A stretch of DNA of 64,000 nucleotides from Candidatus Wolfebacteria bacterium (GCA_024654025.1 JANLIR010000002.1:21885-85884); one strand, 5' to 3'; counted from the stretch's first letter, positions 33,979 through 59,788 are shown. A program made the numbers and translations. The notes: a model not told the origin generated them from the letters alone.

Positions 33979-33988
33979 AATTTATATT

Positions 33989-35423: not shown

Positions 35424-35437
35424 TTTTAAATCTTTAA

Positions 35438-41380: not shown

Positions 41381-41385
41381 GTTGT

Positions 41386-42321
41386 TTATAAATTCGAAAA
41401 ATGATTCCTTTTGATAATTTGGTATCCTTTTATTAATTCTTCTATTCCTTCCTGTAAAGAAATTTTGGACTTAAAACCGGTTTTTTCTATTTTTTCATTA
41501 CTAACAATATAATCTCTTTTATCCGGATCCTCTCCAATTTTTGCTTCGGCAAAATAAAAATCGGGGAGTTGTTTTTTTATCTCATTGCATAGTTCCATTT
41601 TGCTCAAGTTAGCGTCGCTCAAGCCCACGTTATACGGTTCATTTTTCATCTTATCGAAATTCTCCATCGCGTGAATGAAAGCGGCCGCCACATCGCGAAC
41701 ATGAATATAATTCCTCTTAAAATGGGCCTCAAAAAGAACCACAAAACGGTCGGTTACTGCCCTATAAACAAAATCATTTACGAGTAAGTCCAAACGCATA
41801 CGCGGGCTAACGCCAAATACAGTCGCTAATCTAAGAGTAATGCTGTTCCCCGCTTCAAGAAGCGCTTTCTCGGCTTCTACTTTTAGTTTCCCATATAAAG
41901 AAATCGGGTTAAGAGGCGTAGTTTCATCGCAATATGCGTCTTTCTGGCCTATGCCATAACCGCTGTTAGTATTGGGATAAATAATTTTCTGGCCTTTTTC
42001 CCGAAGCTCTAAAATCATCTTTATGGCGTCTAAATTAATGCTTTTTGCGGCCAGCGGGTCTCTATCGCAAGCCAGAGCGCCAACAATACAGGCTAAAGGA
42101 ATGATAAATTCCGCTCCTTTTATATGTTCAGAAATCAATTCGCGGCTTCTTGCGTCTCCACGGATTATTTTCAAATTCTTGTCATTACAAACATCCAACA
42201 ATGACATTTGGTCATAAAAAAAATTATCAATCGCCGTAACTTCATGTCCGCGCTTAAGAAGCTCCGGAGTTAAAATCGAACCTATGTATCCGGCAGCGCC
42301 GGTTATTAATACTTTTGACAT
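41386..42321 (-). CDS. NAD-dependent nucleotide-sugar epimerase/dehydratase (extended SDR)
   Basis: MSKVLITGAAGYIGSIL; YGKLKVEAE (YxxxK). Confidence 0.7.
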   Translation of the reverse strand: MSKVLITGAAGYIGSILTPELLKRGHEVTAIDNFFYDQMSLLDVCNDKNLKIIRGDARSRELISEHIKGAEFIIPLACIVGALACDRDPLAAKSINLDAIKMILELREKGQKIIYPNTNSGYGIGQKDAYCDETTPLNPISLYGKLKVEAEKALLEAGNSITLRLATVFGVSPRMRLDLLVNDFVYRAVTDRFVVLFEAHFKRNYIHVRDVAAAFIHAMENFDKMKNEPYNVGLSDANLSKMELCNEIKKQLPDFYFAEAKIGEDPDKRDYIVSNEKIEKTGFKSKISLQEGIEELIKGYQIIKRNHFSNL

Positions 42322-42322
42322 A

Positions 42323-43495: not shown

Positions 43496-43506
43496 TTCTT
43501 AAATTC

Positions 43507-44454
43507 CTAAATATTAAATCCTTTAACCGCTTTTATAATCGCTTCTTCGTCCAAATTGAGCAGTTTGTGTAAATAATTTCTGCCTCCCAATTCAAAAGCA
43601 TATTTATCGTCAACGCCCATTCTTTTTAATTTAATATCGGCGTCGTTATCAAGAATTATTTTTGACACTAATCCATCCAATCCGCCGTTATTTATAAATC
43701 CCTCCTCCAAAGTAATGGCATATTTATATTTTTTTAAAGCTTCAAACAAGGATTGTTCATTAGCGGGTTTCAATAAAAATACGTCTATTACGCCCACTCC
43801 GGGCAATTCCTTTGCCGCATTTAAAGCCCGATGCGTCATATAGCCGGTAGAAACCAAACAAACGTTATCCCCTTTTAAAAACTCATAAAATCCTTTTTCA
43901 ATATTCAAATCTTCCGCGCCTTCATAAATTGTCGGCAGCGGTTTACTATCAAATCGCAAATATTTTGGATTTTTATATTTAATCGAATAATCAACGAATT
44001 TTTTTGCCAATACCCAATCGCTCGGAGAAAAAACCGAAAAATTAGGCATCAATCTCATAATACTTAAATCTTCTAACGAGTGGTGGGTTGGTCCGGAAAC
44101 GTCATAGCTTAGTCCAGCCCCTATTCCGATAAGATTAACGTTGTTAGGCCTTATCTGGGAGGAAATAGACAAACTCTGCCTTATCTGCTCAAAAGGCCTC
44201 ATTGTTATAAAAGGCGCAATGGCATAAGCATAAACAATATAACCTTCCAGACCCAAACCGACCGCAACATTTATTAAGTTCTGCTCGGCGATTCCAACAT
44301 TTATAAACCGGTCTTTAAAATCTGTTTTTAATTTATCCAGCGCCGGGGCTCCTAAATCCGCCGTAACAAAAAAAATCCGGTCATTTTCTTTCATTTTCTC
44401 GTAAACCGTTTCTATAAATGCGTCCCGCATTGTTTTTGGCTTGTTGTCGCTCAT
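43507..44454 (-). CDS. Transketolase, C-terminal (pyrimidine-binding) subunit
   Basis: 315 aa; ...FINVGIAEQNLINVAVGLGLEG... Confidence 0.75.
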   Translation of the reverse strand: MSDNKPKTMRDAFIETVYEKMKENDRIFFVTADLGAPALDKLKTDFKDRFINVGIAEQNLINVAVGLGLEGYIVYAYAIAPFITMRPFEQIRQSLSISSQIRPNNVNLIGIGAGLSYDVSGPTHHSLEDLSIMRLMPNFSVFSPSDWVLAKKFVDYSIKYKNPKYLRFDSKPLPTIYEGAEDLNIEKGFYEFLKGDNVCLVSTGYMTHRALNAAKELPGVGVIDVFLLKPANEQSLFEALKKYKYAITLEEGFINNGGLDGLVSKIILDNDADIKLKRMGVDDKYAFELGGRNYLHKLLNLDEEAIIKAVKGFNI

Positions 44455-45272
44455 TGTAATTGATTAATAGCGGCGATGACTTCTTCCTCATTCAAAGACT
44501 TTACGTGGCACAAAGCGTCGTTTTCCAGTTGAGGAACTCCTTTGCCTTTTATTGTATTGGCAATTAAAACTTTCGGCCGGCTGTTTTTGGCTTCTTTTAA
44601 TTTTTTCAAAGATTCCAGTACCACCGATACATCGTGGCCGTCTATTGTTTCAACGTCCCATTTAAAGGCCCTAAACTTTTCTTCAAGCGGCAATAAATCA
44701 ATAATATTTTTACAATAATCAAGCATGGCTATTTTATTGCTGTCGATAATCAGCACCAAGTTTTCTAATTTATGCTCAGACGCAAACATAACAGCCTCCC
44801 AAACCGCGCCTTCATATAATTCCCCATCTCCCATCAAAACAAAAACCGTTGAATCGGAATTCTTATTTCTTAAAGCGATCGCTGATCCAGAGGCCACTCC
44901 TAATCCATGCCCCAACGCGCCGTTAATAGTTTCATAGCCTGGGATTGTTGTATCGGGAATGCCTCCCAAAAAAGATCCTTCGTGGCAAACTTTTTCTAAT
45001 TCGCTCTTATCAAAAAAACCCAGGTCCGCCAGTATCGGATACAAAGATATAGAGCCGTGGCCTTTGCTGATTATAAATCTGTCCCTTTCCTCCCATCGGG
45101 GATTTTTAGCGTCAAATTTTAAAACTCCTCCATAATACAAGGCCACAAAAATTTCAACGTCTGACAAAGACGAAGCGAGGCGGGTTTCCGGAGCAATTTT
45201 ATGGATATTTAACGTCTCTTTTCTGACCCACAAGGCTTTTTCTTTTAAAGATTCCGGTGAAAAATTAGTCAT
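44451..45272 (-). CDS. Transketolase, N-terminal (ThDP-binding) subunit
   Basis: ...GHGSISLYPILADLG...GALGHGLGVASGSAIA...VLMGDGELYEGAVWEA; overlaps the C-terminal subunit by 4 nt. Confidence 0.75.
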   Translation of the reverse strand: MTNFSPESLKEKALWVRKETLNIHKIAPETRLASSLSDVEIFVALYYGGVLKFDAKNPRWEERDRFIISKGHGSISLYPILADLGFFDKSELEKVCHEGSFLGGIPDTTIPGYETINGALGHGLGVASGSAIALRNKNSDSTVFVLMGDGELYEGAVWEAVMFASEHKLENLVLIIDSNKIAMLDYCKNIIDLLPLEEKFRAFKWDVETIDGHDVSVVLESLKKLKEAKNSRPKVLIANTIKGKGVPQLENDALCHVKSLNEEEVIAAINQLQ

Positions 45273-45314
45273 AAATATTACTATAAATTATCATGATTAC
45301 TCAAATAATCAAAA

Positions 45315-46250
45315 TTAAAGATTACCGTAATTGTCCACAAACCACTTATAGGCCTCTTTCAACCCATCCTCAAAACTAATTTGGTGTTTCCATCCAAGGG
45401 ATTGTAAACGGCTATTGTCTAACATTCTTACCGGCGTTCCGTCGGGCTTACTCGAATCCCATTCGATATATCCTTCAAAACCGACTATTTTTTTAATCAT
45501 TTCGGCTAATTCTTTTATGGAAATATCAGTGCCAATTCCAATGTTAATTATCTCTGACTCGTTATAATTATTCATCAAAAACACGCAAGCATCGGCCAAA
45601 TCATCAACATAAAGAAACTCTCTTCTAGGAGCGCCGGTTCCCCATAATAGAACCTTTTCCGAATTACTAACCTTCGCCTCGTAAAATTTTCTTATTAATG
45701 CCGGCAGAACATGGGAATTATTTAAATCAAAATTATCATTAGGACCGTATAAATTAGTCGGCATTACAGAAATAAAATTAGTGCCGTATTGCTTATTATA
45801 ACTTTGGCACATTTTAATGCCAGCGATTTTAGCAATTGCGTAAGCATCATTAGTCGGCTCCAAATATCCAGAAAGCAGATATTCCTCCTTTATCGGCTGA
45901 GGACAATTTTTTGGATAAACACAGGCAGATCCTAAAAATAAAAGTTTTTTCACTCCGCTCAAATAACAATTATGTATAATATTGTTTTGAATGGTTAAAT
46001 TCTCATATATAAAATCAGCGGAATAAGTATTATTAGCCAAAATTCCACCTACTTTGGCCGCTGCGTCAAAAACATATTCCGGTTTTTCTTCTTTAAAAAA
46101 ATCAGCCACTTTACTAACGTCAAGTAAATTAAGCTCTTCACGGGTTTTAAACACTAAATTAGTATAACCCTGGCTTTCCAGCTTTCTTAAAATCGCGGAT
46201 CCAACTAATCCTTTATGGCCGGCAATATAAATTTTAGAGTTCTTTTCCAT
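45315..46250 (-). CDS. fcl: GDP-L-fucose synthase-like 3,5-epimerase/4-reductase
   Basis: [20 protein letters not shown]...SACVYP...[12 protein letters not shown] matches the Fcl/WcaG family. Confidence 0.7.
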
Positions 46251-48485: not shown

Positions 48486-50606
48486 TTATTTATTGTTTTT
48501 CATCGCTTCAATATTTTGTTTTACCTTAGTATCGTTAGGCCAATAAGTCAAAATTTCTTCCCCTATTTTTTCAGCCGCCTGAAAGTCTCCTTTGTCTTGA
48601 TACGTCTGCATTAAACCATACAAAAATTGCGGCCTTCGTGGAGAATAAACCAGACCCTCTTTGTAATATTCAATTGCTTTATTTAAATAATTTTGATCGT
48701 TAAAACGCTCGCCGATTGTTAAATAAAACTGTCCCACGGTCATAAAATTTTGCGAGAAATTTCCGCCGTGACCAGACTTAACGATGGGATCAAAATATTT
48801 CATATTAAATTTAAGAAGTTCTTCGGCAATTTCACGCGGCAAATTCTGCTGTCCGCTTAAAATCCCCAGAGTCGCACTCCCCAACTGTTTCACGCTTTCG
48901 TCTTGCCCAACAGGAGAATAAAAATCCAAAACCGATGAAAAAATTTTTTCAAAACCATCAACGGTTACGCCATTTTGAATATTTCCCATCGTGCCAATCA
49001 ATAACTGTGATTTTTTGAAAGGTAAATACGCTCCATAATAGACAAAAACAATTACCAGCACAGAAACAAACCCTGCCAAAGCCTTTTTAATCAACGGGTC
49101 AAGCACCGTCTTTTTAACATCTTTTTCGTTTTGTAATTTTTGTTCCCTAAAAATAAAATTAGCCAGCGCTAAAAATAGAAAAAGATTTATGTAAATAGGA
49201 GTTACATCAAAAATAAAAGCTCCCTGCGCAAGATAAGCGAGCGGCAAAGAAAAAAATATTGCATTCGTAGCCGTTATGTTAAAATCCGAATTTAAAAACT
49301 TATTTTTACTTGTTTCTTTTGCCGCTTGGTGTCCTTCCTTAGAAGAAACTAAATGTTTTTTATATTTAAAAAATCCCAAATAAAAAACTATAAATACCGA
49401 CAGATAACTCAAAAAGCCTAGGATTCCCGTTTCGGCAAGATAATCAAAGAAAACGCTATGCGCCCTATCAAACCATGTCTCCGACCTGGAAGCGTCTGGA
49501 TTAAAATGCCGGGTATCAAAATATTTATCAAAAACCGCCGGGAAATTTTCCGCCCCCCAACCAAATACAGGTCTGTCACGCCAGCCTTTTATTGCCGCCC
49601 CCCAAGTCCACAACCTGGTTTGAGCGGTATCTTCTTTTAAAGAAATACTAAACAAACGGCTGCCTGGAATTTTCTTGACAAAATTCGAATCATTGAAATA
49701 AAAGAGTAGTCCCCCTATTAGCGCCAAAAAAATTAAAGCTCCGGAACTCCATGTTCGCCATTTTCCTTTTAAAGATAGGATCAAATAAACCACAAAGAAA
49801 AACACCCCGGCTATCAACCCAAGAAAAGCGCCTCTGGTCTGCGACCACCAGAAAAAGAAAAGATAAAAAACAACCAGCGGCAAAATAAAATATTTAGTCT
49901 TTCGTGAATTAGAAGTGAATAACAGATAAAAAGCGTAAAAAATTATAAAAAGCAAAAGCGGCGCTAAATAAGCCGGGTTGCCTAAACTGCCCGCAAACCG
50001 GTTTAAATTGAAACTTAATGGTCCGCCCATATAACCGTCAAAGGTGGTTAGCCAACCGCTTTCAATAAGCTTACCTGAAGCGTCTTTTGGCCCGATTATG
50101 CTACCTCTTTCGTCAAATTGCATACCGACATATTTTAATCCTGCGGCAACGCCGTATAAGATAACTAAAACAGCCACCACCATAAAAATCTTTAAAAGAA
50201 GCCTCCAATCTTTTTCATTTGTAAAAAGAAACGTTAAAAGCAAGAAAAATATATAAAAGAAAAAGAGCTGGACACCTCCTTCTCCTCTTTCAAAATTAGA
50301 CCAAAAAGAAAAAGACGGATTAATCCCCAAAAATCCCGCCAGCAAAAAAATAAAAACAAAAATCGAGACCGCTATAACTAGCGGTGATTTTAATTTTTCC
50401 AAAAGTTTTTTTCCTCCGCTATAGCCCGAATAAGACCCGAACCCCACCCCCAGAGCAAAGAAAATCAGAGACAAACCGATCGTTATCCTAAAAAATACAT
50501 ACTTGCCGACTATAAAAGGAAACAGCGTTGATGAAGAAACGATTATCAAGCAAAACGGCGCCACGTAAAGCAATATTTTTGATATACTAAAAAAATAATT
50601 TTTCAT
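48486..50606 (-). CDS. Wzy_C / O-antigen-ligase-family polytopic membrane protein with a C-terminal TPR domain
   Basis: 706 aa with about 12 TM helices and a periplasmic-loop region; the C-terminal ~150 aa have TPR-like repeats (...AIEYYKEGLVYSPRRPQFLYGLMQTYQDKGDFQAAEKIGEEIL). Confidence 0.6.
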   Translation of the reverse strand: MKNYFFSISKILLYVAPFCLIIVSSSTLFPFIVGKYVFFRITIGLSLIFFALGVGFGSYSGYSGGKKLLEKLKSPLVIAVSIFVFIFLLAGFLGINPSFSFWSNFERGEGGVQLFFFYIFFLLLTFLFTNEKDWRLLLKIFMVVAVLVILYGVAAGLKYVGMQFDERGSIIGPKDASGKLIESGWLTTFDGYMGGPLSFNLNRFAGSLGNPAYLAPLLLFIIFYAFYLLFTSNSRKTKYFILPLVVFYLFFFWWSQTRGAFLGLIAGVFFFVVYLILSLKGKWRTWSSGALIFLALIGGLLFYFNDSNFVKKIPGSRLFSISLKEDTAQTRLWTWGAAIKGWRDRPVFGWGAENFPAVFDKYFDTRHFNPDASRSETWFDRAHSVFFDYLAETGILGFLSYLSVFIVFYLGFFKYKKHLVSSKEGHQAAKETSKNKFLNSDFNITATNAIFFSLPLAYLAQGAFIFDVTPIYINLFLFLALANFIFREQKLQNEKDVKKTVLDPLIKKALAGFVSVLVIVFVYYGAYLPFKKSQLLIGTMGNIQNGVTVDGFEKIFSSVLDFYSPVGQDESVKQLGSATLGILSGQQNLPREIAEELLKFNMKYFDPIVKSGHGGNFSQNFMTVGQFYLTIGERFNDQNYLNKAIEYYKEGLVYSPRRPQFLYGLMQTYQDKGDFQAAEKIGEEILTYWPNDTKVKQNIEAMKNNK

Positions 50607-50691
50607 TTTATTCGATGCAAATTAATACGGATTTTATACAATTTTAATAATATGAATAAATCGTTTAATAGTCAACGCGCGCATACAATTA

Positions 50692-50725
50692 TCCGCATAA
50701 ATCCGTTTAATCCGTATTAATCCGT
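50692..50725. promoter_or_regulatory. Three tandem AATCCGT(A/T)TTA-like repeats plus an inverted copy at 50620-50630, in the promoter region of the Wzy_C-TPR gene
   Basis: CCGCATAAATCCGTTTAATCCGTATTAATCCGTG. The inverted copy is TAATACGGATT (50620-50630). Confidence 0.35.
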
Positions 50726-50730
50726 GAACT

Positions 50731-50754
50731 AAAATCCCCCTTTCGGGGGATTTT
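50731..50754 (-). terminator. Terminator hairpin downstream of the 1651-aa surface-protein gene
   Basis: AAAATCCCCC-TTTC-GGGGGATTTT perfect stem. Confidence 0.55.
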
Positions 50755-50768
50755 AGTTTCCGCAATTT

Positions 50769-53700
50769 TTATTGCGTTGCCTTCTTTAACTCCTGAAGTT
50801 GCGCCAAAAGTTTTGTTATCTTGGCTTCAATCTCTTGAATCAAAGTTCTTAATTGCTGAATTAATTGCGCTTTAGAAGATGCCTGCTCTGGCAATTGCGG
50901 AACATTCGCGCTTGAACCGGCTAAAAGTTGGTTAATTTTCGCCCGAGTCGCCGGCCCGACATCGCCATATCCAAGATTGCCGGATTTTGCGATTCCATAT
51001 TTTTCCTGAAATCTTTGAACAGCTCTTCTTGTGGCAGTGCCGAAGTATCCGCTTATTATTCCTTCAGGATAAACATCGCTGTCTTTTGCTAAAAATTCCT
51101 GCAGAGATTTTACCTCATTGTCGGTTATTCCCTGCATCAATCTCAATGTAAGTTTTTTAATTAACCCTGTTGGCAATGAAGTTTGCGCTACGCCGGTTAG
51201 CTGCGAAATTGTACTGGTAACAGACGTTGCCGATGAAGTGGCAGTAATAGAAGGAGTAAAACCTCCTCCGCCGCCGGAAGACAGAATTGATATCGGAAGG
51301 CCGCTGCCAGCAACAGCCGCTGGAGCAGCAGGCGTAGCGGAAACCGCGTCCGTCGTTGCCGCTGATTCGTTGTCATTGCTATCCAAAGCTGAAACTTTAT
51401 AGGAATAAGCCGTGCCGTTTGTTAATCCGGTATCCGTGTAGCTCGTTACCGTTGTCTGGCCTAAATACGGATAATCCGAACCGCTTAGACGATACACATC
51501 ATACTTGGTTGCGCCGGTTGAAGCGGTCCATGAAAGAGCAACTTGGCCATTACCAGCCGTAGCCGATAAACTTGTAGGCGTTGCGGGCGCAGTTGAAGTA
51601 GTGGAAATTATTGGCGCAAAAGTTGAAAAGTGGCTTGTTGTCCCTTTTAAGGTTAGGGATGTGAGCGTATCCCAAGTTGCGCCGGTTGGAGCAACTACTG
51701 GTGTTGTTGAAATTTCAGTCCAGTTGTCCGCTGTTGTATCCCAATAACCGATTACGATTTTATTCGCGTCAACCAAACTAGTAATACCCGCGCTAACTAA
51801 TTCCGCCTTAGTCAGCACAATTTCCATATCAACATTCTGGGACAAATTAGTAATTTGTTGTCCTTGGTTAGCGCCGCTTGAATAAGACGCTTCGATTTTT
51901 TTGCCTTTAGTTCCGAAAACTTTAACGTTGTTTTTATCGGGCACATCCATTGTATTTTGCACTGTTACCTGCGTCTGAGTTGTGTCCGATCCTAAAGCGC
52001 CCTGAGGAATATTTAATTTTACGTCATCAGTTTGAACAACTCCTCCTTGAGTCGGAGTAAACGACTGCGATGTCTGTTTAGCATCAAAACTTACGGCCTG
52101 CAGATTAACTGTTAAGCCCGCAGACGGAGCGGTTACGCTGATTGGATTAGCTGTGTTATACCCGTCGGCAATGGCTTGGACTTTCCACAAACCGCTTCCC
52201 ACATTTAGAGTAAAGCTGCCGTCTCCTTCTGACATTGCTCCTGCCCAACCCGTACTTCCAGTTTGTTCAGCCCAAACTCTGGCGCCTTCTATTGCCGTGC
52301 CATTATATTTAACATACCCGGTAATGCTTTGAGAATTTTGAGTTAGAGACAAAGACAAACCAGCGGTGGTTGTGCTTATTGATTGATTAGCCAATCTTGT
52401 CCCTAAAAACCCGGGCTTTCCAACTCCTATATCGTAATTCCCTCCCCTTAATTTCATTGAAAAAGTTCCGTCATTGGCAACTCTCGAGCCCCCGCCTCCA
52501 GCCGGACTAGCTGCCCAGACAAAGGCGTCTGTTGAACTGCCGGAAACCGTTCCTGAAACAACGTAAAAGTCAGTTGCGCTCAAATCTATAATTATAGAAG
52601 TGCTGGCGGTGATTGCCGTTGTAGTTGGAGTGATTGGTCCGAAACCGGGAATTCCTCCTTCAATGGTGTAGGTAGTTGAACCCGAAAAAGGAATTTGAAT
52701 GCTGTAAGCGTCGTAATCGGAGCCGACACTGGAAGTGGTATTAGTGAATCCTCCTCCTAAAGTACTGTGCGCGCCGATAAATACATTGCTGAACGTATTT
52801 TTTGGCTTCAGGCGAATTTCCAAAGTTGCGGTATTAACCGCGACGGTTACTGTTGTGCTGGCAGTCACCGCATTACCGCTATTTAACTGCCCTTTATAAA
52901 TTTCTCCCTGACCCATAACAGCGGCGTGAAGATAAAGATTAGTAAGGCCTGTTGTTGTTTTGAACGTAAAAGCGCCAGCGCTATCGGTTTTAGCCCAACC
53001 CATTCCTGGGCCGAATTCTCCTTGTGTAACCCAAGTATCAACCTGAGAAACACCGGAACCGTTTTTTGAAACCGTGCCGGAAATCGTAATAAAATTAGCG
53101 CTGCTTAAAGTAAAGTTAACCGTCGGGCTAGTGGAATTAGTTACCACAACATTTGTTTGTTCCGACAGCTGTCCGTATTCCTTACTGAATCCGCCGACAC
53201 GATAATTAGAACAAGGTGAAACATACATCTTGTAATAGCCTTGAGAATCGGTAAACGCGCTCCCTCCGCCAGGGCCTCCTGAACACCAGGCATTCAAATC
53301 CACGTTGGCAATCGCGTTCCCGGAACCGTCTTTAACGTAGCCGGAAATACTGCTCGTTGGCGGTTCTAATTTAATCGTTATCACCGGCGTGCTCGCGTCA
53401 AGCGCAAAAGCGCTACTGCTAACAACCACTATTTCTTTTTCAACTGACCCAGGCATACCAGGCCCGCCAACGCCTATTTTATAAGTCCCTTGGCTTGCGT
53501 AAAGCGAAAAGTATCCGGTGCTGTTAGGCATAGTCGCGCTGCCTTTTCCGTTTGCGATTGGCTGGTAAGCTGTTACCCACATCTCGTTATATTTACTTGC
53601 TGAAAGCGCGCTGCCGGCTCCATCAACAATTCTGCCGTAAATTTTTCTGTCAGCCGCGGTAAAAGTAAGGTTAGAGGTAATCGTTGTGGTGGAATCGGTT

Positions 53701-55724
53701 ATTTCAAACATCTGCCCGCTCGGTTCAATCAACGGCGAAGTGCTTGTCGTTGATTGAGAAGGCGGCAAATGCGCCTCAACTCTATAAAATCCATTGCTCG
53801 GCAAAGCAACGGCATAAGCCACCTGACAAGTGCTGGTTGTGCTGAAAAATGACGGCATCACGCCTCCTGGTCCCATTTGCGTATTTGTTCCTTGAGGCAT
53901 TGCAAACACCGCGATAGTTTTATTTCGTCCGTCAGCGTCGCAACTTGCTTTTGTTGTTATTGTGCCGGAAACTTTTCTGGTCGTCGCGCCTTGCAAAGTC
54001 AAAACTAGCGGACTGGAAGATGAAGTTCCTGATTGAATATTTGCGCCGGGAGCCGGCAAGCGAGCGCCAGTGGGGTCGTATGCCCAAACCATTCCCATAC
54101 CCGCAATATTATCTATTGTGTAAACTCCGGTGCTTGTGCTGAAAGTTATTCCCGAGCTCGCGGCTGTATAAACTTGAGGCCCGCTCATCCCGGCGATAAC
54201 CAAACTCACATTGCCGCTGGAAGTAACCGTAGAAGTACTCACTCCGGCTAAAAGATCAACCCGAACATTAAGAGGTCCGGAAATATCAAAAAAAGTATTT
54301 TGGTTCATATCCGACATCATTCCATCAGAAGTAACTATAGTGATCGGTCCGCCTTGGGCGCCAACAGGAACCGTAGCCGTGATTGAAGTAGCGCCCCAAG
54401 CAGTTGTGGAGGCGGGAATCGGCTGAAGCGGCCCAGTACTTGGGTCAAAACCTCCGGAAAACATCACCGTTCCAGTGTCAGTCCCAAAATTAGTTCCGGC
54501 AATTGTTACGGTATCCCCTACGGCCCCTGAAGTCGGAGAAACCGAACTGATTGTCGGAAGCAGTGCCGTAGAAACAGTGATACTGCTATTGGAATAAGAG
54601 AGAGGAAGATTGTTTGTATCAGTAACTCCCGAAATTGCCAAGCTTATAATCGCCCCTCCGGTTAAACTTAAGTTTTTAATAGTTACGCTATTGCCCATAA
54701 ATTCTATAAACGAACTCCCATAACCGCCGCAACTCAAAGCAGAACCGTTCAAAGTATAATTTGCGCAATTCGTGGCTAAATCTCCACGCAAATTTTTACT
54801 GGCGTTAATTACTATTTTATTAGTAAACGCGTTAACAGACGTAACTGTCGGCGGAGTCGAAGTAGAATTCGGAATAAATTGGACAAAACTACTCGTGGCA
54901 TTGCCGGCCGCGTCGCTCATCGCCAGCCACAAAGAAGAATAAAACGTGCTCCCGATGCTAAAATTAGCAGTCCCGCTAGCGCTAACTCCGCCCGTAGCTA
55001 TTGGCGCGGAACTCGTTGAAGTTGTGTAAACAGAAAGAAGTCCTTGTTCGCCAAGACCACCCGAACCGGTATCGGCCAAATAATAATTTCCACTGGAATA
55101 CGTAAGCGTTGCCTTAGTTGAATCAGGAATTTGCGAATGCGTATCAGCTACTACTTGAGCCGTAGTGGTGGCGCCAATTGTGGGAGAGTTAGCAGATGTA
55201 ACAACACTGCTTGTGCCTGCCGCGATATTTACCGTAACGCCCTGGCGGACAGAAGTAGTGGCTTCAGGATAACCATTGTCAGTCCATGCGTTTGAAGTTC
55301 TTAAAACCACAAAAAATGTTCCGGTTGCCGGCGTGGTTGTGGCGGCCGCGATGTTTATCCTTGTTGTGGTGGCTATATTAACGCTTGAAGTCGCTAACAA
55401 AACATCGGCTGGGTCAAATTGGAAATCAGAATTCGCGTCTTTATATACGCCTACCCAGTCAAAACTGGACGAAGCAACCGCGGTGCTTGTCGCGCTCGTT
55501 GACGTAGAAATCAAAACCGTCGTGCTTGATAAGGTCTCGCCAGCGGTAATGGATAATTCAAGTCGTAAAACAGGAATCATTGATCCTGCTTTTACCGTGC
55601 TTGTCGCGCTGACCAGCGCCGTTGAAGTGCCGGTTACCGCGGCCTGCGCGTTATTTAATAAACCGACCGTAAAAAAACTGGCGACTAAAAAAATCGCCCC
55701 GACAAAAAAGAATTTTCTAAACAT
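50769..55724 (-). CDS. Giant (1651 aa) Thr/Ser/Gly-rich cell-surface protein with Cna-B-like domains, an Fn3 domain, a PG_binding_1 domain and a C-terminal coiled coil
   Basis: Signal peptide; repeated GYVKDGSGNAI...-type beta-sandwich modules. Fn3 is at ...LSWTASTGATKYDVYRLSG.... The peptidoglycan-binding domain is ...LMQGITDNEVKSLQEFLAKD...GYFGTATRRAVQRFQEKYGI. The terminal heptad coiled coil is QLIQQLRTLIQEIEAKITKLLAQLQELKK. Confidence 0.6.
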   Translation of the reverse strand: MFRKFFFVGAIFLVASFFTVGLLNNAQAAVTGTSTALVSATSTVKAGSMIPVLRLELSITAGETLSSTTVLISTSTSATSTAVASSSFDWVGVYKDANSDFQFDPADVLLATSSVNIATTTRINIAAATTTPATGTFFVVLRTSNAWTDNGYPEATTSVRQGVTVNIAAGTSSVVTSANSPTIGATTTAQVVADTHSQIPDSTKATLTYSSGNYYLADTGSGGLGEQGLLSVYTTSTSSAPIATGGVSASGTANFSIGSTFYSSLWLAMSDAAGNATSSFVQFIPNSTSTPPTVTSVNAFTNKIVINASKNLRGDLATNCANYTLNGSALSCGGYGSSFIEFMGNSVTIKNLSLTGGAIISLAISGVTDTNNLPLSYSNSSITVSTALLPTISSVSPTSGAVGDTVTIAGTNFGTDTGTVMFSGGFDPSTGPLQPIPASTTAWGATSITATVPVGAQGGPITIVTSDGMMSDMNQNTFFDISGPLNVRVDLLAGVSTSTVTSSGNVSLVIAGMSGPQVYTAASSGITFSTSTGVYTIDNIAGMGMVWAYDPTGARLPAPGANIQSGTSSSSPLVLTLQGATTRKVSGTITTKASCDADGRNKTIAVFAMPQGTNTQMGPGGVMPSFFSTTSTCQVAYAVALPSNGFYRVEAHLPPSQSTTSTSPLIEPSGQMFEITDSTTTITSNLTFTAADRKIYGRIVDGAGSALSASKYNEMWVTAYQPIANGKGSATMPNSTGYFSLYASQGTYKIGVGGPGMPGSVEKEIVVVSSSAFALDASTPVITIKLEPPTSSISGYVKDGSGNAIANVDLNAWCSGGPGGGSAFTDSQGYYKMYVSPCSNYRVGGFSKEYGQLSEQTNVVVTNSTSPTVNFTLSSANFITISGTVSKNGSGVSQVDTWVTQGEFGPGMGWAKTDSAGAFTFKTTTGLTNLYLHAAVMGQGEIYKGQLNSGNAVTASTTVTVAVNTATLEIRLKPKNTFSNVFIGAHSTLGGGFTNTTSSVGSDYDAYSIQIPFSGSTTYTIEGGIPGFGPITPTTTAITASTSIIIDLSATDFYVVSGTVSGSSTDAFVWAASPAGGGGSRVANDGTFSMKLRGGNYDIGVGKPGFLGTRLANQSISTTTAGLSLSLTQNSQSITGYVKYNGTAIEGARVWAEQTGSTGWAGAMSEGDGSFTLNVGSGLWKVQAIADGYNTANPISVTAPSAGLTVNLQAVSFDAKQTSQSFTPTQGGVVQTDDVKLNIPQGALGSDTTQTQVTVQNTMDVPDKNNVKVFGTKGKKIEASYSSGANQGQQITNLSQNVDMEIVLTKAELVSAGITSLVDANKIVIGYWDTTADNWTEISTTPVVAPTGATWDTLTSLTLKGTTSHFSTFAPIISTTSTAPATPTSLSATAGNGQVALSWTASTGATKYDVYRLSGSDYPYLGQTTVTSYTDTGLTNGTAYSYKVSALDSNDNESAATTDAVSATPAAPAAVAGSGLPISILSSGGGGGFTPSITATSSATSVTSTISQLTGVAQTSLPTGLIKKLTLRLMQGITDNEVKSLQEFLAKDSDVYPEGIISGYFGTATRRAVQRFQEKYGIAKSGNLGYGDVGPATRAKINQLLAGSSANVPQLPEQASSKAQLIQQLRTLIQEIEAKITKLLAQLQELKKATQ

Positions 55725-55928
55725 TTTTTTAAAAACCGCGAACTGAAAATTATTTGCTTATAATTTTACAGATCTACGACTCTTTATTATAAAAAACAAG
55801 ACCTTTTTTATTTTAAAAAAACAAAAATTGGGAGATAGTTTCTCTTAGTTTAATTATACAATATTTAAGGAAATGGAAATTGTGGATAACTATTTAGATA
55901 CGGACAATCTGCATTGGTCCGTGAATTC

Positions 55929-55952
55929 AAAAACCCCCTCTCGGGGGTTTTT
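55929..55952 (-). terminator. Bidirectional-looking rho-independent terminator after the 1084-aa gene
   Basis: AAAAACCCCCTCTCGGGGGTTTTT. Confidence 0.7.
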
Positions 55953-56000
55953 GAATTGGTCGGTTATGCGCTACCGACAAACTCCAATCAGTTATTCAGG

Positions 56001-59000
56001 TTAGTTCAAGAAACTACTGGCTTGTCCGTTGATTGGCGTCGCAATTGACGGATCTATCGATGAAATATCGTTAACTCCATCATTCCAAGTAGCGGTCGAT
56101 ACCACAATCTGGTAAGACCTCGTAATTGGAGTAGTGGCATTTGATGCCAAGCTAGTTGCAGACCCTAAGTCGGCTTTCACGATCAAGTACAAGCTCTGTC
56201 CGGCAGGAACTGTCCAACCGGTTGTGCTATTCAACACAACTGACGTAGCAGTAGTAGATGACAATGTCGTAGAAGCGAGCAATGTCGACTGCCTATCGCT
56301 GCCATAAAGGCTGATAGTGACGATAGTCGAAGATTGCTGTAATGATCCTACCTGTTTCATTGTCACCGTCTTAATGATTGTGTCGTATCCAGCGCCAGCA
56401 GCAAAAGTAAACTGTCCAACAACTGAACCGTCCGCAAGACCGGCGGCTGCCGTAAATGTCGGGCCAGAAGCCACGCCCAAGGTAGTCCTATAAAGCGTTA
56501 CTGCCTGGCTGTCATAAGCAGCTGACGAAGTTGTGGAAGTAGAAAGAGCGATGCTGGTTGTGGTAGCTCCAGAAGCGTTGTTGTAAGTAAACTGCGCCAA
56601 TCTAAAGTTATGAGCAGCGCCTGAAGAAGCGGCTGCCGCAAAACCTACAGTATCGGCAACCACGCTCAATGACTTGTAAGAGCTGGCCGGTACAACAAAT
56701 CCTGTCAACGGGAAGCTGATTGCGCTACCAGCGCTTTCAGTACCATTAGACAATAAAGTTGCGCCGTCGTACAACTTGAAATTAGTCCAAGACCTATCCG
56801 TTGAAGTAGTGGTTGTTGCCGCGCTCTTCATATCGTTTATAGCGACATTAGTCAAAGCGCCGTCTCCACTGCTATTGGCGGTAAATCTGAACTTAGCCAC
56901 TGTAATACCATTTACTCCCATTCCGACAAACGCGGCATTCGGAGTAGCGGAATCAATAGCTCCGGTCACAGTACCACCCGTTGTTATGCTGACCGTTTGG
57001 CCAGCCACACCGGTAATACTAACTGCGTTTCCAACATTATTGGTCGCGTTAACGCTAGCCAAAGTAACCAACGAACCGCTGTTCGTGGTTGCGCTGTTAG
57101 AAATGTTTGAGTAAACATCAACAATCGCAATCGCGCCCGGCGCGATTGAAACAGCCGAGCCAGTATTGAAGGTGTAAGACGTATTGCTGGCAACAGTCGG
57201 TTGAGTATTGCCTGCTTGAACGCCGTTAACCTTAACCGTCAAAGCTGTCATCCAGTCGGAAAGCGTTCCGCTGGCAGTAGATGTTACGGTAACTCCTGTT
57301 AAACTAACACTGTTAACTTGACCCGCGGTCAAATTAAACGACGCGATTCTTGCCTGGCTTGCTCCAGCTGTAACTATCGGCGTACCCAAAGCATAGTTCA
57401 AAGACGATGCTAATTGAGTAGTGGAAAGCAACACCGACAAAGGATACCCGCTAACCGCTGAAACCGTAACTGTCGCGTAGCTGGTGTAGCTTTGCGCGGT
57501 ACCGCTGGCAATAGCTACTGTCATTGTTCCAGTCGCGCTAGAACCGACATCAGCGTAAACATTCAATGTTCTGGTTTGATTAGCAGAAATAATGTAATTC
57601 AAGCTGCCTGAGCCAATCGCAAATGTAGTGGCTCCGGTAGTTTGGGTTGTCCCAAGCTGAACGCCCTGATCATCAACAACTCTTACGTTGCTGTAGTTAT
57701 TGGCGCCGGCGCTCATTGTCATGTTCAACTGGTTTATCTTTACGCTGTCTCCGGAAGCCAATAAATCTAACTTGGCCAACACTTGGTTGGTGTTTCCAGC
57801 AACAACATTGGAAGCCGGCGAAGCAGCATTTCTGCTCATAACCAACCCTCCATTGTTAATGGTTGCGGTGTAGAAACTTATCGGCCAAGTGGCATACGTA
57901 GCTCCTATTCCTACGCTGTAAGTCGCGTCAGTAGCAGTAATATCAGCTGATTGCTGAAGTGAAAACGCGAAAGTTCTGTTAACTCCGCCAGTTATATCAA
58001 CATAAACCTGCAAAACAACAGTTTGCCCTGACGACAAAGACAACGGAGCGCTTGACAAATCAAATGTCAAAACATTGTCAGAGCCAAGCTGGGCAATAGC
58101 ATTGCCAACTTGAGTTCCTGCTTGCATCAATTTGATGTTTTGCAAGTAGCTCGGAGTAACGCTTCCGACATTAAGTAATCGCAAACTATTAACTTTAACC
58201 GGTTGATTGCCGACCTGTACCGTAAACTGGGCAGCCAAATAATTGGTCTGTCCGGCATTTACAGTAACAGCGCCTGTGCTGACCGCGGAAATCGTTAAAG
58301 TAGCGAGGTTGGTAACGCTTACCAAAGCAAACTGACTGCCGCTTACCGGGAGATTACCCGAAACAGCGCCTGTTCCGCTAAGAGTTACGTCAGCCGCAGC
58401 CGCGACGCCAAACGACATCACGTGGCTGGCGCTTGAAGTAGCGGTGGTCGCGTCCAAAGAAACAGTAATGGTCTTGGTTGTACCGGCAGGAACAATAAAG
58501 AGGCCATTAGCATTGTTAAAGTTAACTTTGCCAAGAGAAGTTCCCAAATTGGAAGCCAATCTGGTAACGCCGTCGTAAAGATACATATTGTTTATGTCCG
58601 CATCTTGCGACAAGCCGCTTCTTGTTATTTTTAAACCGGTAACCGTAACCGCAGCTGATCCGGCAGAGAAGTTAAGTTTCAAAACCGGAGTATTTACAGC
58701 GCCGATAGCCAAATTGGCTGACGCTGGATTATCAGAAGCTAAACTAACAGCAACCGCTCCAGTGACTGGAGTGGTGCCTGTGCCCGTTCCAGTGCCTGTG
58801 CCTGTTCCAGTTCCAGTGCCGGTTCCGGTTGAAGCCAAAGAGTTAATATAACTCCTTGTTATCGGACCGAAGTAACCGACAGCCGGAGAAATTGCGTTCG
58901 CTGCCTGATATTTCGCCACAGCGGCTTTGGTCCTGGATCCGAAATAAGTAGTTTCGTTTCCAACTGAACCAGCTCCGCTGGCGGAAACTGTAAATCCTTG

Positions 59001-59255
59001 AGCATTCAAGAATTGCTGAAGGGACTTAACATCTTCTCCAGTTGACCCCACAGTGAGGCTGCGGGTAAAGGAATAAGATGTCGTGCCCTGTACTTGCCCC
59101 AATTGCGCTTTTGCCGCGTTAAGCTGAGCCATAAGCGCTGCGATTTGGGCTTCCAAATCCGTAGTGCTAGTCTGAGCAAAAGCAACCGGCGCCATCATAT
59201 AGACAACGGTTGTTACGGAAACTGCAATGGACGCAAGTTTTCGTCCTATATTCAT
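56001..59255 (-). CDS. Giant (1084 aa) surface protein with four parts. (1) Signal peptide. (2) Coiled coil and a PG_binding_1 domain. (3) A (Gly-Thr)n linker. (4) Multiple Ig-like beta-sandwich repeats.
   Basis: N-terminal signal peptide; coiled coil DLEAQIAALMAQLNAAKAQL; PG-binding ...GEDVKSLQQFLNAQGF...TKAAVAKYQAANAI...; the linker is GTGTGTGTGTGTGTGTGT; the remainder is Thr/Ser/Ala/Val-rich. Confidence 0.6.
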   Translation of the reverse strand: MNIGRKLASIAVSVTTVVYMMAPVAFAQTSTTDLEAQIAALMAQLNAAKAQLGQVQGTTSYSFTRSLTVGSTGEDVKSLQQFLNAQGFTVSASGAGSVGNETTYFGSRTKAAVAKYQAANAISPAVGYFGPITRSYINSLASTGTGTGTGTGTGTGTGTGTTPVTGAVAVSLASDNPASANLAIGAVNTPVLKLNFSAGSAAVTVTGLKITRSGLSQDADINNMYLYDGVTRLASNLGTSLGKVNFNNANGLFIVPAGTTKTITVSLDATTATSSASHVMSFGVAAAADVTLSGTGAVSGNLPVSGSQFALVSVTNLATLTISAVSTGAVTVNAGQTNYLAAQFTVQVGNQPVKVNSLRLLNVGSVTPSYLQNIKLMQAGTQVGNAIAQLGSDNVLTFDLSSAPLSLSSGQTVVLQVYVDITGGVNRTFAFSLQQSADITATDATYSVGIGATYATWPISFYTATINNGGLVMSRNAASPASNVVAGNTNQVLAKLDLLASGDSVKINQLNMTMSAGANNYSNVRVVDDQGVQLGTTQTTGATTFAIGSGSLNYIISANQTRTLNVYADVGSSATGTMTVAIASGTAQSYTSYATVTVSAVSGYPLSVLLSTTQLASSLNYALGTPIVTAGASQARIASFNLTAGQVNSVSLTGVTVTSTASGTLSDWMTALTVKVNGVQAGNTQPTVASNTSYTFNTGSAVSIAPGAIAIVDVYSNISNSATTNSGSLVTLASVNATNNVGNAVSITGVAGQTVSITTGGTVTGAIDSATPNAAFVGMGVNGITVAKFRFTANSSGDGALTNVAINDMKSAATTTTSTDRSWTNFKLYDGATLLSNGTESAGSAISFPLTGFVVPASSYKSLSVVADTVGFAAAASSGAAHNFRLAQFTYNNASGATTTSIALSTSTTSSAAYDSQAVTLYRTTLGVASGPTFTAAAGLADGSVVGQFTFAAGAGYDTIIKTVTMKQVGSLQQSSTIVTISLYGSDRQSTLLASTTLSSTTATSVVLNSTTGWTVPAGQSLYLIVKADLGSATSLASNATTPITRSYQIVVSTATWNDGVNDISSIDPSIATPINGQASSFLN

Positions 59256-59788
59256 TTTTATGTTTTCGTTTTATGCCCGTTTTAAAAATAAAAGCTAAAA
59301 ATAAAAATTTTATTTTAAAAAGGGTTTTTTGTTTTTAATCTAAATTAATTTTCAGAAAAGCTATTGCCTTTCAATCGACCCACTGTCTGACCGTGTGAGG
59401 TTAGGCGGCAGTCTGACAAAACAATAACTCTGGTAGCTTGTTAATGAGGATTTATTAAAATAATTATAAAAAATCCTCGCGTGAGCGAGGCATCCATGCC
59501 GACTATGTCGGCAACCAAAATAACTTAAAAACTAAAATACTTAACGCTTCTTAATTTTACGTTTTTTAGTATTTTAGTATTTTCGTATTTTCGTAGCGCT
59601 TATAAAGCGCTGTGGTCTAGCCTCACTCTAAACCCCCTTTTCTTAATTCAATTATAAATCACTCCCAAATCTTGTCAATCTTACTTAACGGTCTTGACGG
59701 CTTTGATAGAGATAACGACATAAAATCATTGTTGTTTCAGCTCCCAAAGAAATATACTTGTCGTTGGTTGTGGGTTGTAAATTGTTAG

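What the first reader, a model, noticed from the sequence alone, without database searches (positions are those of the whole stretch)
48486..59255. Wzy_C/TPR 'O-antigen-ligase' next to two giant Ser/Thr-rich PG-anchored surface proteins: a candidate protein O-glycosylation system
Monoderm-like CPR cells have no lipid A core, so a WaaL-type enzyme has no canonical acceptor. Wzy_C-domain proteins also include PglL/PilO-type O-oligosaccharyltransferases. This one carries a TPR protein-interaction tail and lies directly upstream of two huge secreted proteins that are 30-40% Ser/Thr/Ala/Gly and carry PG_binding_1 domains. The adjacent 29-kb island supplies a priming transferase and flippase but has no obvious Wzy polymerase or Wzz. 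The likely model is that the Und-PP-linked oligosaccharide is flipped and transferred en bloc onto the surface proteins, S-layer-like.
Basis: inference. Interest (0 to 1): 0.55.

Follow-up and report, generated by a model that had tools for sequence, protein, structure and literature searches.

The report
Candidate surface-protein O-glycosylation enzyme in Patescibacteria
A WaaL/PglL-type membrane enzyme with an outward-facing TPR domain lies next to a conserved wall-anchored surface protein in many Patescibacteria, so it probably glycosylates that protein, much as Gram-positive S-layer glycosylation systems do, though nothing here shows it directly.

Summary
The three ORFs exist exactly as described, in a Candidatus Wolfebacteria contig.

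- **Conserved pairing.** The 1084-aa PG_binding_1 protein family sits directly upstream of a Wzy_C/TPR gene in 20 of 44 species loci with enough upstream sequence. Searching from the other side found this in 14 of 32 metagenome loci. The aspS-ndk neighbours are conserved only in the closest relative.
- **Candidate acceptor site.** Every family member checked carries a Thr-rich, low-complexity linker after its wall anchor.
- **Split or fused TPR.** The TPR tail is a separate adjacent gene in 68 of 81 loci and fused in 10. The known S-layer O-oligosaccharyltransferases show the same pattern (WsaA+WsaB versus WsfB).

Corrections:
- The enzyme gene is downstream of the giant genes, not upstream.
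- S+T+A+G content is 47-50%.
- The 1651-aa gene is adjacent only in close relatives, so the triad is not conserved.

Protein glycosylation is inferred, not shown. A non-protein wall acceptor remains a serious rival. I rate this a new member of a known kind, of moderate interest.

The parts
48486..50606 (-). Wzy_C/TPR enzyme, 706 aa: a WaaL/PglL-type undecaprenyl-diphosphate-glycan ligase or O-oligosaccharyltransferase candidate (family A)
49455..49697 (-). Large loop between TM9 and TM10 (aa 304-384), predicted to face outward. It carries invariant R317, R331, the GWG-x-ENF motif and W378-x-D380-R381-A382-H383.
   Evidence: Invariant columns in alignment A1. In the profile alignment to 7TPG and 9RMK, R331 aligns with WaaL R265, and H383 with WaaL H313 and 9RMK H349. 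Residue roles are from PMC10920833. Sidedness is inferred from the model helices and the Lys-rich loops at 426-440 and 488-503.
48486..49109 (-). Tail module (aa about 500-706): a 13th transmembrane helix plus a TPR domain of about 160 aa, predicted to face outward. In most relatives this is a separate adjacent gene.
56001..59255 (-). 1084-aa secreted, wall-anchored surface protein and proposed acceptor. Order of parts: signal-like N-terminus, coiled coil, PG_binding_1, Thr-Gly linker, about six beta-sandwich (Ig-like) domains.
   Evidence: Pfam PG_binding_1. 71% identical orthologue directly upstream of the Wzy_C orthologue in L001. Family of 365 hits, mostly 1060-1300 aa among the listed hits, nearly all of those named being Patescibacteria. 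AF2 model pLDDT 80.3. Foldseek matches to tandem Ig-like adhesins.
58761..58835 (-). (Thr-Gly)n low-complexity linker (aa about 141-165) between the wall anchor and the first beta domain: the predicted O-glycosylation site
   Evidence: Sequence. Disordered in the model, with pLDDT below 50 at aa 143-163. A Thr-rich linker of different sequence ((TTP)n, (GGTTT)n, (TP)n) sits at the same place in homologues. The acceptor role is inference.
50769..55724 (-). 1651-aa secreted surface protein (CarboxypepD_reg, fn3, C-terminal PG_binding_1). It is a lineage-specific neighbour and at most a secondary substrate.
   Evidence: Pfam. Absent from this locus in L001. Kept next to the 1084-aa homologue only in the 84%-identity relative L168; contexts are unrelated in L169 and L170.
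59651..59678 (-). Perfect sigma-70 consensus (TTGACA-16-TATAAT), about 400 nt upstream of the 1084-aa gene
   Evidence: 12 of 12 match. This is a consensus match only. The total number of promoter-like sites is no higher than in shuffled sequence.
50647..50750 (-). Terminator-like hairpin just after the 1651-aa stop (50750..50736) and a promoter-like site (50675..50647) before the Wzy_C start
   Evidence: This suggests the enzyme gene may have its own promoter. Consensus matches only.
16908..46250 (.). Glycan-biosynthesis island that would supply the lipid-linked oligosaccharide: Bac_transf, Wzx, three GT2, one GT1-like, NeuB plus cytidylyltransferase, heptose-type genes, GDP-fucose synthase, aminotransferases, methyltransferases and two B12 radical-SAM enzymes
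   Evidence: Pfam and NCBIfam. Only Bac_transf and Wzx are polytopic membrane proteins.

Best explanation
The 706-aa protein is a WaaL/PglL-type inverting GT-C enzyme. It takes a completed oligosaccharide from a flipped undecaprenyl-diphosphate carrier on the outer face of the membrane and transfers it en bloc to a hydroxyl acceptor.

The donor would be built by the neighbouring island: a Bac_transf priming enzyme, cytoplasmic glycosyltransferases, then the Wzx flippase. No polymerase is evident.

The most likely acceptor is the 1084-aa wall-anchored surface protein encoded directly upstream in many Patescibacteria. The most probable site is Thr in the disordered Thr-rich linker between its PG_binding_1 anchor and its Ig-like domain array. 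The outward-facing TPR module, fused here and a separate membrane-anchored partner in most relatives, would hold or present the protein substrate.

**Shown:** fold, catalytic-type residues, domain architecture, conserved gene linkage, and the split/fused TPR module.

**Inferred:** the lipid carrier, en-bloc transfer, protein as acceptor, the linker as the site, and the role of the TPR domain.

The 1651-aa protein also has a Ser/Thr/Ala/Pro-rich stretch before its PG_binding_1 domain. It may be a secondary substrate, but its adjacency is recent.
For: **Enzyme type**
- Pfam Wzy_C is above its cut-off.
- PDB profile hits are WaaL 7TPG (E 5.8e-9) and the oligosaccharyltransferase 9RMK (E 5.4e-7).
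- R258, R331 and H383 align with WaaL R191, R265 and H313 and are invariant in 20 diverse homologues. PMC10920833 states that these residues bind the Und-PP phosphates and activate the acceptor, and that polymerases of the clan have Asp or Glu in place of the His.
- The family is highly conserved: 58 invariant residues and 43% mean column identity. The glycan genes flanking the window and L001 differ. That pattern fits a ligase with a fixed acceptor.

**Only candidate:** no other polytopic membrane enzyme lies in or near the island.

**Linkage to the 1084-aa family**
- 20 of 44 GTDB species loci with at least 7.5 kb upstream carry a homologue upstream on the same strand.
- Reciprocally, 14 of 32 metagenome loci retrieved with the 1084-aa family have a Wzy_C/TPR gene within 4 kb downstream on the same strand. 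In three more loci it is adjacent on the opposite strand, and in three others it lies further off or upstream.
- L167 shows surface protein, then Wzy_C/TPR, then a GT4 cluster.
- Internal control: aspS and ndk are conserved neighbours in only 2 of 84 loci.

**Acceptor-like feature:** a Thr-rich linker with conserved composition but variable sequence, disordered in the model.

**Precedents**
- The S-layer O-OTases WsaB and WsfB carry Wzy_C. WsfB and PglL have a C-terminal TPR. WsaB lacks one but has the adjacent 168-aa TPR protein WsaA (PMC2943079).
- The substrate pilin gene lies immediately upstream of tfpM, as in the known TfpO-PilA pairs (PMC9829042).

**Model quality:** pTM 0.88 for the whole 706-aa model suggests a fixed docking of the TPR domain on the core. 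That reading is inference.
Against: - There is no experimental or proteomic evidence of glycosylation.
- No sequence feature is known to me that separates protein-directed from lipid- or glycan-directed Wzy_C ligases. The closest solved structure is WaaL, not an O-OTase.
- In 31 of 80 loci the family-A gene follows RNase Y, not the surface-protein gene (about 16 of the 44 loci with at least 7.5 kb upstream). The enzyme is therefore retained without that adjacency.
- In many relatives the gene immediately next to the surface-protein gene is a second, long paralogue (about 25% identity), not the orthologue of the window protein.
- Species loci are not phylogenetically independent, so part of the linkage could be inherited gene order.
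- Thr/Gly/Pro linkers are also ordinary flexible spacers.
- The consensus scan suggests separate transcription units here.
Confidence: 0.5

Rival explanations
1. The enzyme is a ligase for a non-protein acceptor. It would attach the flipped oligosaccharide to a wall glycopolymer, peptidoglycan or a membrane glycolipid, acting as a monoderm counterpart of WaaL. The surface-protein gene would be adjacent because both belong to envelope assembly, for example if the protein binds the glycan-decorated wall.
For: - WaaL is the best solved structural and sequence match.
- The family is present in loci without the surface-protein gene, for example after RNase Y.
- The most frequent neighbours are nucleotide-sugar and glycosyltransferase genes: an SDR pair in 49 loci, GT2 in 26 and GT4 in 24.
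- PG_binding_1 shows that the adjacent protein contacts the wall.
Against: - No acceptor-building pathway was found beside it. There is no LCP-like or teichoic-acid-like cluster among the 22 commonest neighbour families.
- The TPR partner is a protein-binding fold and is the feature reported for protein-directed Wzy_C enzymes.
- Linkage to the 1084-aa family holds for two paralogous enzyme families and whichever gene the search started from.
- A Parcubacterium genome was reported to lack lipid A genes (PMC5220378).
Confidence: 0.3
2. The enzyme is the Wzy-type polymerase missing from the island. It would polymerise repeat units, and another enzyme elsewhere in the genome would attach the polymer.
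For: - The island has a priming transferase and Wzx but no other polymerase candidate.
- From my own knowledge, some polymerases also hit Pfam Wzy_C.
Against: - His, not Asp or Glu, occupies the acceptor-activating position. PMC10920833 reports His for ligases and an acidic residue for the polymerase families of the clan.
- The family is very well conserved across species whose glycan clusters differ, whereas polymerases are the most diverse class.
- No Wzz-type hit appears in the window.
- WaaL is the top structural hit.
Confidence: 0.07
3. The enzyme is a general O-oligosaccharyltransferase that modifies many secreted proteins, including pilins, as PglL does in Neisseria. On this view the 1084-aa protein has no special relation to it.
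For: - Several large secreted proteins in the window have Ser/Thr-rich low-complexity stretches: the 1651-aa protein and the 1409-aa LTD protein.
- The enzyme is retained in loci without the 1084-aa gene.
Against: - No pilin-like ORF (G-F-T-L-I-E type motif) was found in the window or in any of 84 loci.
- Adjacency is specific to the 1084-aa family. The 1651-aa family shows no such linkage.
Confidence: 0.1

Closest known systems
S-layer protein O-glycosylation loci of Bacillales: WsaA+WsaB with SgsE in Geobacillus stearothermophilus NRS 2004/3a, and WsfB with SpaA in Paenibacillus alvei (PMC2943079)
   Same: - A monoderm setting.
- A Wzy_C-domain transferase proposed to move a lipid-linked glycan onto a secreted surface protein.
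- A TPR module either fused (WsfB) or encoded by a small adjacent gene (WsaA).
- An asparagine-synthase homologue is listed in the P. alvei locus (wsfA), and one lies downstream of the enzyme in 10 relatives here.
- From my own recollection, not from the passages read, the S-layer structural gene lies close to the glycan cluster in G. stearothermophilus.
   Different: - The proposed acceptor is anchored by PG_binding_1 and is a tandem Ig-like array. It has no SLH domain and no demonstrated 2D lattice.
- The glycan route here is Wzx-dependent with no polymerase evident. The Geobacillus route uses a Wzm/Wzt ABC transporter.
- Direct sequence comparison with WsaB or WsfB could not be made.
- The lineage is Patescibacteria.
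PglL, PglS, TfpO and TfpM O-oligosaccharyltransferases of Proteobacteria
   Same: - A Wzy_C domain with an essential His. H383 aligns with H349 of the 9RMK chain.
- En-bloc transfer from Und-PP carriers.
- For TfpM and TfpO, the substrate pilin gene lies immediately upstream.
- PglL and PglS have a C-terminal periplasmic domain.
   Different: - No pilin substrate is present.
- Sequence similarity is limited to the catalytic region (E 5.4e-7).
- The cell is monoderm-like.
- The extra module is a separable TM-plus-TPR protein.
WaaL O-antigen ligase (Cupriavidus metallidurans 7TPG/7TPJ; CAZy GT121)
   Same: - The Arg/Arg/His set is in equivalent positions.
   Different: - A lipid A-core acceptor is not expected in this lineage.
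- There is an extra 13th helix and a TPR domain.
- Identity is 14-17%.
- The gene lies beside a surface-protein gene rather than a core-oligosaccharide cluster.

Membership tests
Wzy_C domain / O-antigen-ligase-type GT-C enzymes (Pfam PF04932; CAZy GT121-like) | Profile match above the curated threshold | tested here: met
   69.9 bits against a cut-off of 31.7, E 2.6e-19, aa 244-402
Wzy_C domain / O-antigen-ligase-type GT-C enzymes (Pfam PF04932; CAZy GT121-like) | 12-TM WaaL-like fold with a long extracytoplasmic loop | tested here: met
   [not shown]
Wzy_C domain / O-antigen-ligase-type GT-C enzymes (Pfam PF04932; CAZy GT121-like) | Two conserved Arg that bind the diphosphate, and a His that activates the acceptor | tested here: met
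   R258, R331 and H383 align with WaaL R191, R265 and H313 (roles from PMC10920833). They are invariant in A1. R331 and H383 are invariant, and R258 is kept in 23 of 25, in the alignment with the long paralogue.
WaaL sensu stricto (LPS O-antigen ligase) | A lipid A-core oligosaccharide acceptor is present in the organism | not testable with these tools
   Only 64 kb of the genome is available, and no LPS gene was seen in it. A Parcubacterium genome was reported to lack lpxC and kdsA (PMC5220378).
Protein O-oligosaccharyltransferase (PglL/TfpO/PglS/TfpM type) | A Wzy_C domain with the conserved catalytic His | tested here: met
   H383 aligns with H349 of 9RMK 'Oligosaccharyltransferase'. The requirement for the His is stated in PMC9829042.
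Protein O-oligosaccharyltransferase (PglL/TfpO/PglS/TfpM type) | The cognate substrate gene lies directly upstream of the transferase gene (the pilin-OTase pair rule) | tested here: inconclusive
   A secreted protein family lies directly upstream in 20 of 44 and 14 of 32 loci. It is not a pilin, and no pilin-like ORF is nearby. Its status as a substrate is untested.
Protein O-oligosaccharyltransferase (PglL/TfpO/PglS/TfpM type) | Demonstrated transfer of glycan to Ser/Thr of a protein | not testable with these tools
   This needs mass spectrometry or reconstitution.
S-layer O-OTase systems (WsaB/WsfB type) | A Wzy_C enzyme with a TPR module, either fused or encoded by an adjacent small gene | tested here: met
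   The TPR fold of the tail is confirmed. It is fused in 10 and a separate adjacent gene in 68 of 81 loci. The pattern in WsfB versus WsaA/WsaB is described in PMC2943079.
S-layer O-OTase systems (WsaB/WsfB type) | The acceptor is a lattice-forming S-layer protein (SLH-anchored in the known cases) | tested here: not met
   The 1084-aa protein has PG_binding_1 and no SLH hit. Its fold matches tandem Ig-like adhesins, not solved S-layer proteins. Lattice formation itself cannot be tested here.
S-layer O-OTase systems (WsaB/WsfB type) | Sequence orthology to WsaB or WsfB | not tested
Wzy O-unit polymerase | An acidic residue (Asp or Glu) at the acceptor-activating position, high sequence diversity, and a Wzz partner | tested here: not met
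   His is invariant at that position. The family is highly conserved. No Wzz hit appears in the window.

The most novel reading that the evidence does not exclude
Paceibacteria share a conserved three-part envelope module:
- a peptidoglycan-anchored surface protein of about 1100 aa made of Ig-like domains, which could be the unidentified surface-layer protein of CPR cells;
- one or two WaaL-like O-oligosaccharyltransferases, each working with a membrane-anchored TPR partner;
- a variable glycan island.

Together these would build a glycosylated protein coat. The enzyme family would be a lineage-specific class of protein O-OTase that evolved without LPS.
Probability: 0.3. Interest if true: 0.7.

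Novelty: new member of a known kind. Interest (0 to 1): 0.5.

Why it matters
The make-up of the CPR/Patescibacteria cell envelope is still unclear. A glycosylated S-layer has been suggested only from glycosyltransferase counts (PMC5220378).

This locus names concrete, widely conserved candidates:
- a size-conserved, wall-anchored surface-protein family;
- a WaaL-like enzyme with a separable TPR partner;
- a predicted acceptor linker.

That makes the question testable by metaproteomics and glycoproteomics, or by reconstitution in glyco-engineered E. coli. If the enzyme proves to be a protein O-OTase, it would extend Wzy_C-type protein glycosylation to a very large uncultured lineage. It would also add a divergent enzyme, 14-17% identical to WaaL, to the glyco-engineering toolbox.

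If the acceptor is instead a wall polymer, the enzyme would define a WaaL-like ligation step in a monoderm-like lineage. That would also be informative.

Tried and rejected
- **Pilin glycosylation (TfpO-like).** Rejected on context. No class-III-signal pilin motif was found in the window or in 84 loci.
- **Conserved gene triad.** Rejected. The 1651-aa gene is missing from the locus of the 56%-identity relative and is unlinked in its 46-53% homologues.
- **Polymerase reading.** Considered and largely rejected because of the invariant His, the high conservation and the absence of Wzz.
- **S-layer identity of the 1084-aa protein by fold.** Foldseek against the PDB gave only generic Ig-like arrays, so this is neither supported nor excluded.
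- **NCBIfam.** It gave only far-sub-threshold hits (IctB, PEP_O_lig_1) for the enzyme and nothing for the 1084-aa protein.
- **Rfam.** It found only one tRNA, and nothing in the long leader of the 1084-aa gene.
- **Literature.** Searches for Patescibacteria with O-antigen ligase or oligosaccharyltransferase found no description of this system in the held library.
Full report
**What is in the sequence.** Almost all genes in the window lie on the minus strand, including every gene from 20.7 to 63.6 kb apart from one 204-aa HAD hydrolase ORF and a tRNA.
- In transcription order the region reads: a 1084-aa ORF (59255..56001), a 1651-aa ORF (55724..50769), a 706-aa ORF (50606..48486), then aspS, ndk and a GDP-fucose synthase gene. 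After that comes a glycan-biosynthesis island running down to about 16.9 kb.
- The 1651-aa protein is 100% identical to an NCBI protein from a 248,723-bp MAG contig labelled Candidatus Wolfebacteria.
- The rest of the window is ordinary chromosome: ribosomal proteins, rpoA, enolase and iPGM.
- The coordinates given in the finding match the three ORFs exactly.

**Checking the observation.**
- The 706-aa protein hits Pfam Wzy_C well above the curated cut-off (69.9 against 31.7 bits). Its TPR hits are sub-threshold, at E about 4e-3.
- Both giant proteins hit PG_binding_1 above the cut-off and begin with a hydrophobic, signal-like segment.
S+T is 26.8% and 26.6%, and S+T+A+G is 50.0% and 47.2%. 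The aspartyl-tRNA synthetase next door has 18% S+T+A+G.
- The island encodes a Bac_transf priming transferase and a Wzx flippase. These are its only polytopic membrane proteins.
- The island also encodes GT2 and GT1-like transferases, NeuB with a cytidylyltransferase, heptose-type genes, aminotransferases, methyltransferases and two B12 radical-SAM enzymes. No second Wzy_C, Wzy or Wzz hit appears.
The enzyme gene follows the two giant genes.

**What the enzyme is.**
- It belongs to a large family in which all named hits are Patescibacteria. There are 1301 database hits. A scan of one genome per GTDB species found 498 loci, and the 80 kept are Patescibacteria-type MAGs.
- The family is strikingly conserved. 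In 20 diverse members there are 58 invariant residues, including FWSN-x-ERG, TRG, GWG-x-EN and W-x-DRAH.
- A profile of the family hits two solved structures: the WaaL O-antigen ligase 7TPG (E 5.8e-9) and a 610-residue 'Oligosaccharyltransferase', 9RMK (E 5.4e-7).
- From those alignments, R258, R331 and H383 correspond to WaaL R191, R265 and H313. H383 also corresponds to H349 of 9RMK.
[quoted passage not shown] It also states that the polymerase families of the same clan carry Asp or Glu where ligases have His.
- From the model's helices and the two Lys-rich loops at 426-440 and 488-503, I infer a 12-TM core with the catalytic loop outside. A 13th helix would place the TPR domain outside too. 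This sidedness is inference.

**A separable TPR partner.**
- In 68 of 81 related loci the core (about 450-490 aa) and the tail (about 190-220 aa) are two adjacent genes. In 10 loci, including the window, they are fused. The three loci without a visible tail are cut by contig ends.
- 69 of 72 tail ORFs start with a hydrophobic segment. 57 of 72 overlap the core's stop codon or start within 30 nt of it.
- The tail is therefore a constant partner of the enzyme, not an occasional decoration.
- The same fused-or-split pattern is described for the known Gram-positive S-layer O-oligosaccharyltransferases. WsfB and PglL have a C-terminal TPR. WsaB lacks one, but the adjacent wsaA encodes a 168-aa TPR protein (PMC2943079).

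**Linkage to the surface proteins.**
- In the closest relative (enzyme 56% identical) the order is a 1081-aa protein, Wzy_C, aspS, ndk, then glycan genes. The 1081-aa protein is 71% identical to the window's 1084-aa protein. There is no 1651-aa homologue at that locus.
- Among GTDB species loci with at least 7.5 kb upstream, 20 of 44 carry a homologue of the 1084-aa protein (1056-1176 aa, with PG_binding_1) upstream on the same strand.
- In 10 of those 20, a second, long Wzy_C/TPR paralogue (750-860 aa, about 25% identity) lies between the two genes. About 16 of the other loci have RNase Y upstream instead.
- As an internal control, aspS and ndk are conserved neighbours in only 2 of 84 loci.
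- I then searched from the other side, retrieving metagenome loci with the 1084-aa family. 14 of 32 loci with at least 1.5 kb downstream have a Wzy_C/TPR gene within 4 kb downstream on the same strand.
- In three more of those loci the gene is adjacent on the opposite strand, and in three others it lies further off or upstream.
- One widely sampled Azambacteria locus reads surface protein, Wzy_C/TPR, then a GT4 cluster.
- In the alignment of the window protein with 24 long-paralogue sequences, R331, D380 and H383 are invariant. R258 is kept in 23 of 25 sequences and D467 in 24 of 25.
- The 1651-aa family behaves differently. It stays next to the 1084-aa homologue only in an 84%-identity relative. 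It lies in unrelated contexts at 53% and 46% identity.
- The conserved unit is therefore the pair (1084-aa family plus Wzy_C/TPR), not the triad.

**What the 1084-aa protein is.**
- Its family has 365 hits, and most of the listed hits are 1060-1300 aa long. Nearly all named hits are Patescibacteria, annotated only as 'peptidoglycan-binding domain-containing protein'.
- The model (pLDDT 80.3) shows, in order: a signal-like N-terminus, one coiled-coil helix, the three-helix PG_binding_1 domain, a disordered stretch at 143-163, and about six beta-sandwich domains.
- Its fold matches are tandem Ig-like arrays such as PrgB, antigen I/II, Gram-positive pilins and integrin legs. None is an S-layer-specific match.
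- Every homologue examined has a Thr-rich, low-complexity linker after the anchor. The sequence varies ((TG)n, (TTP)n, (GGTTT)n, (TP)n) but the composition is conserved.
- This linker is the most plausible O-glycosylation site, but it could equally be a plain spacer.

**Most likely mechanism.**
1. The island builds a lipid-linked oligosaccharide.
2. Wzx flips it to the outer face.
3. With no polymerase evident, the Wzy_C/TPR enzyme transfers the unit en bloc to an acceptor on the outer face.

I favour the 1084-aa protein as the acceptor (confidence about 0.5), for these reasons:
- the two-way conserved adjacency;
- the rule that ligase genes sit beside their acceptor genes, as in pilin-tfpO/tfpM pairs (PMC9829042);
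- the protein-binding TPR partner shared with the S-layer O-OTases;
- the Thr-rich linker;
- the reported absence of lipid A genes in a Parcubacterium (PMC5220378).

**Rivals.**
- **A non-protein wall or lipid acceptor (0.3).** This is the serious rival. WaaL is the nearest solved structure, the enzyme persists without the adjacency, and its commonest neighbours are sugar-nucleotide and glycosyltransferase genes. No acceptor pathway, such as an LCP-like cluster, was seen among the 22 commonest neighbour families.
- **A polymerase role (0.07).** This conflicts with the invariant His, the high conservation and the absence of Wzz.
- **A general O-OTase with no special substrate (0.1).** This is compatible with the chemistry, but not with adjacency being specific to the 1084-aa family. 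No pilin-like gene is nearby.

**Comparison with what is known, and novelty.**
- Functionally the system resembles the S-layer glycosylation loci of Geobacillus and Paenibacillus. The enzyme is a member of the Wzy_C / GT121-like ligase class.
- It fails one defining feature of the S-layer systems. The acceptor has no SLH domain and no demonstrated lattice. Orthology to WsaB or WsfB could not be tested.
- I found no description of this Patescibacteria family, its split TPR partner or its linkage to the PG_binding_1 surface-protein family in the held literature. A 'glycosylated S-layer' in Parcubacteria has been suggested only from glycosyltransferase counts.
- I rate it a new member of a known kind, of moderate interest. 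It gives a concrete and testable handle on the unresolved CPR envelope.

Noticed in passing
window 59300-59700 (minus strand); L001 6080-6629: The 1084-aa gene has a long upstream region. It holds a perfect sigma-70 consensus (59678..59651) and then a terminator-like hairpin (59490..59475). About 180 nt before the start codon is nearly identical (a few substitutions and one 16-nt indel) to the 71%-identity relative's leader, while sequence further upstream is poorly conserved. It contains a direct repeat, GTCAGAC. There is no Rfam match. It could be a regulatory leader, a small RNA, or the true promoter region of a highly expressed gene.
   Followed up: partly
L005, L008, L010, L022, L034, L044, L046, L052, L070, L081; L086-L159 (for example L133 13473-15851): Many relatives carry a second, long Wzy_C/TPR paralogue (700-860 aa, about 25% identical to the window enzyme) immediately after the 1084-aa homologue. 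R331, D380 and H383 are invariant in it. It is absent from this 64-kb window.
   Followed up: partly
L005-L084, downstream of the Wzy_C core and tail genes: A pair of SDR epimerase/dehydratase genes (GDP-6-deoxyhexose type) lies downstream in 49 of 80 loci, making it the commonest neighbour. An asparagine-synthase homologue follows in 10 loci, which recalls wsfA in the P. alvei S-layer glycan locus.
   Followed up: partly
window 8665-12894 (minus strand): A third giant secreted protein (1409 aa) has two Lamin-Tail-Domain matches, a weak fn3 hit and long Ser/Asn/Thr-rich low-complexity stretches. An LTD protein also lies upstream of the 1084-aa homologue in L167.
   Followed up: no
window 50001-60000: The two giant genes have 43-48% G+C, against 34-41% for most of the window. 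This is probably a consequence of their Ala/Gly/Thr/Ser-rich composition rather than foreign origin, because the orthologue of the 1084-aa gene is syntenic in relatives.
   Followed up: partly
window 29668-33135 and 39361-40851: The glycan island contains NeuB plus a CMP-type cytidylyltransferase (a nonulosonic-acid route), two B12-binding radical-SAM enzymes and several methyltransferases. This suggests a heavily modified sugar.
   Followed up: no
window 59789-60499 (minus strand); L166 6826-7536: A 236-aa protein with a weak DeoR-type HTH hit lies directly upstream of the 1084-aa gene, both here and in a 45%-identity relative. It is a possible dedicated regulator.
   Followed up: no
window 14241-14855 (minus strand); L168 3273-3731: A small protein with a PaaX_M / Cas2-like domain. 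A similar one lies near the surface-protein genes in the close relative.
   Followed up: no
window 3676-5217 (minus strand) and 4991-6838 (plus strand): Two long ORFs overlap by about 230 nt on opposite strands. The iPGM Pfam match starts only at residue 103 of the plus-strand ORF, so its real start is probably further downstream.
   Followed up: no
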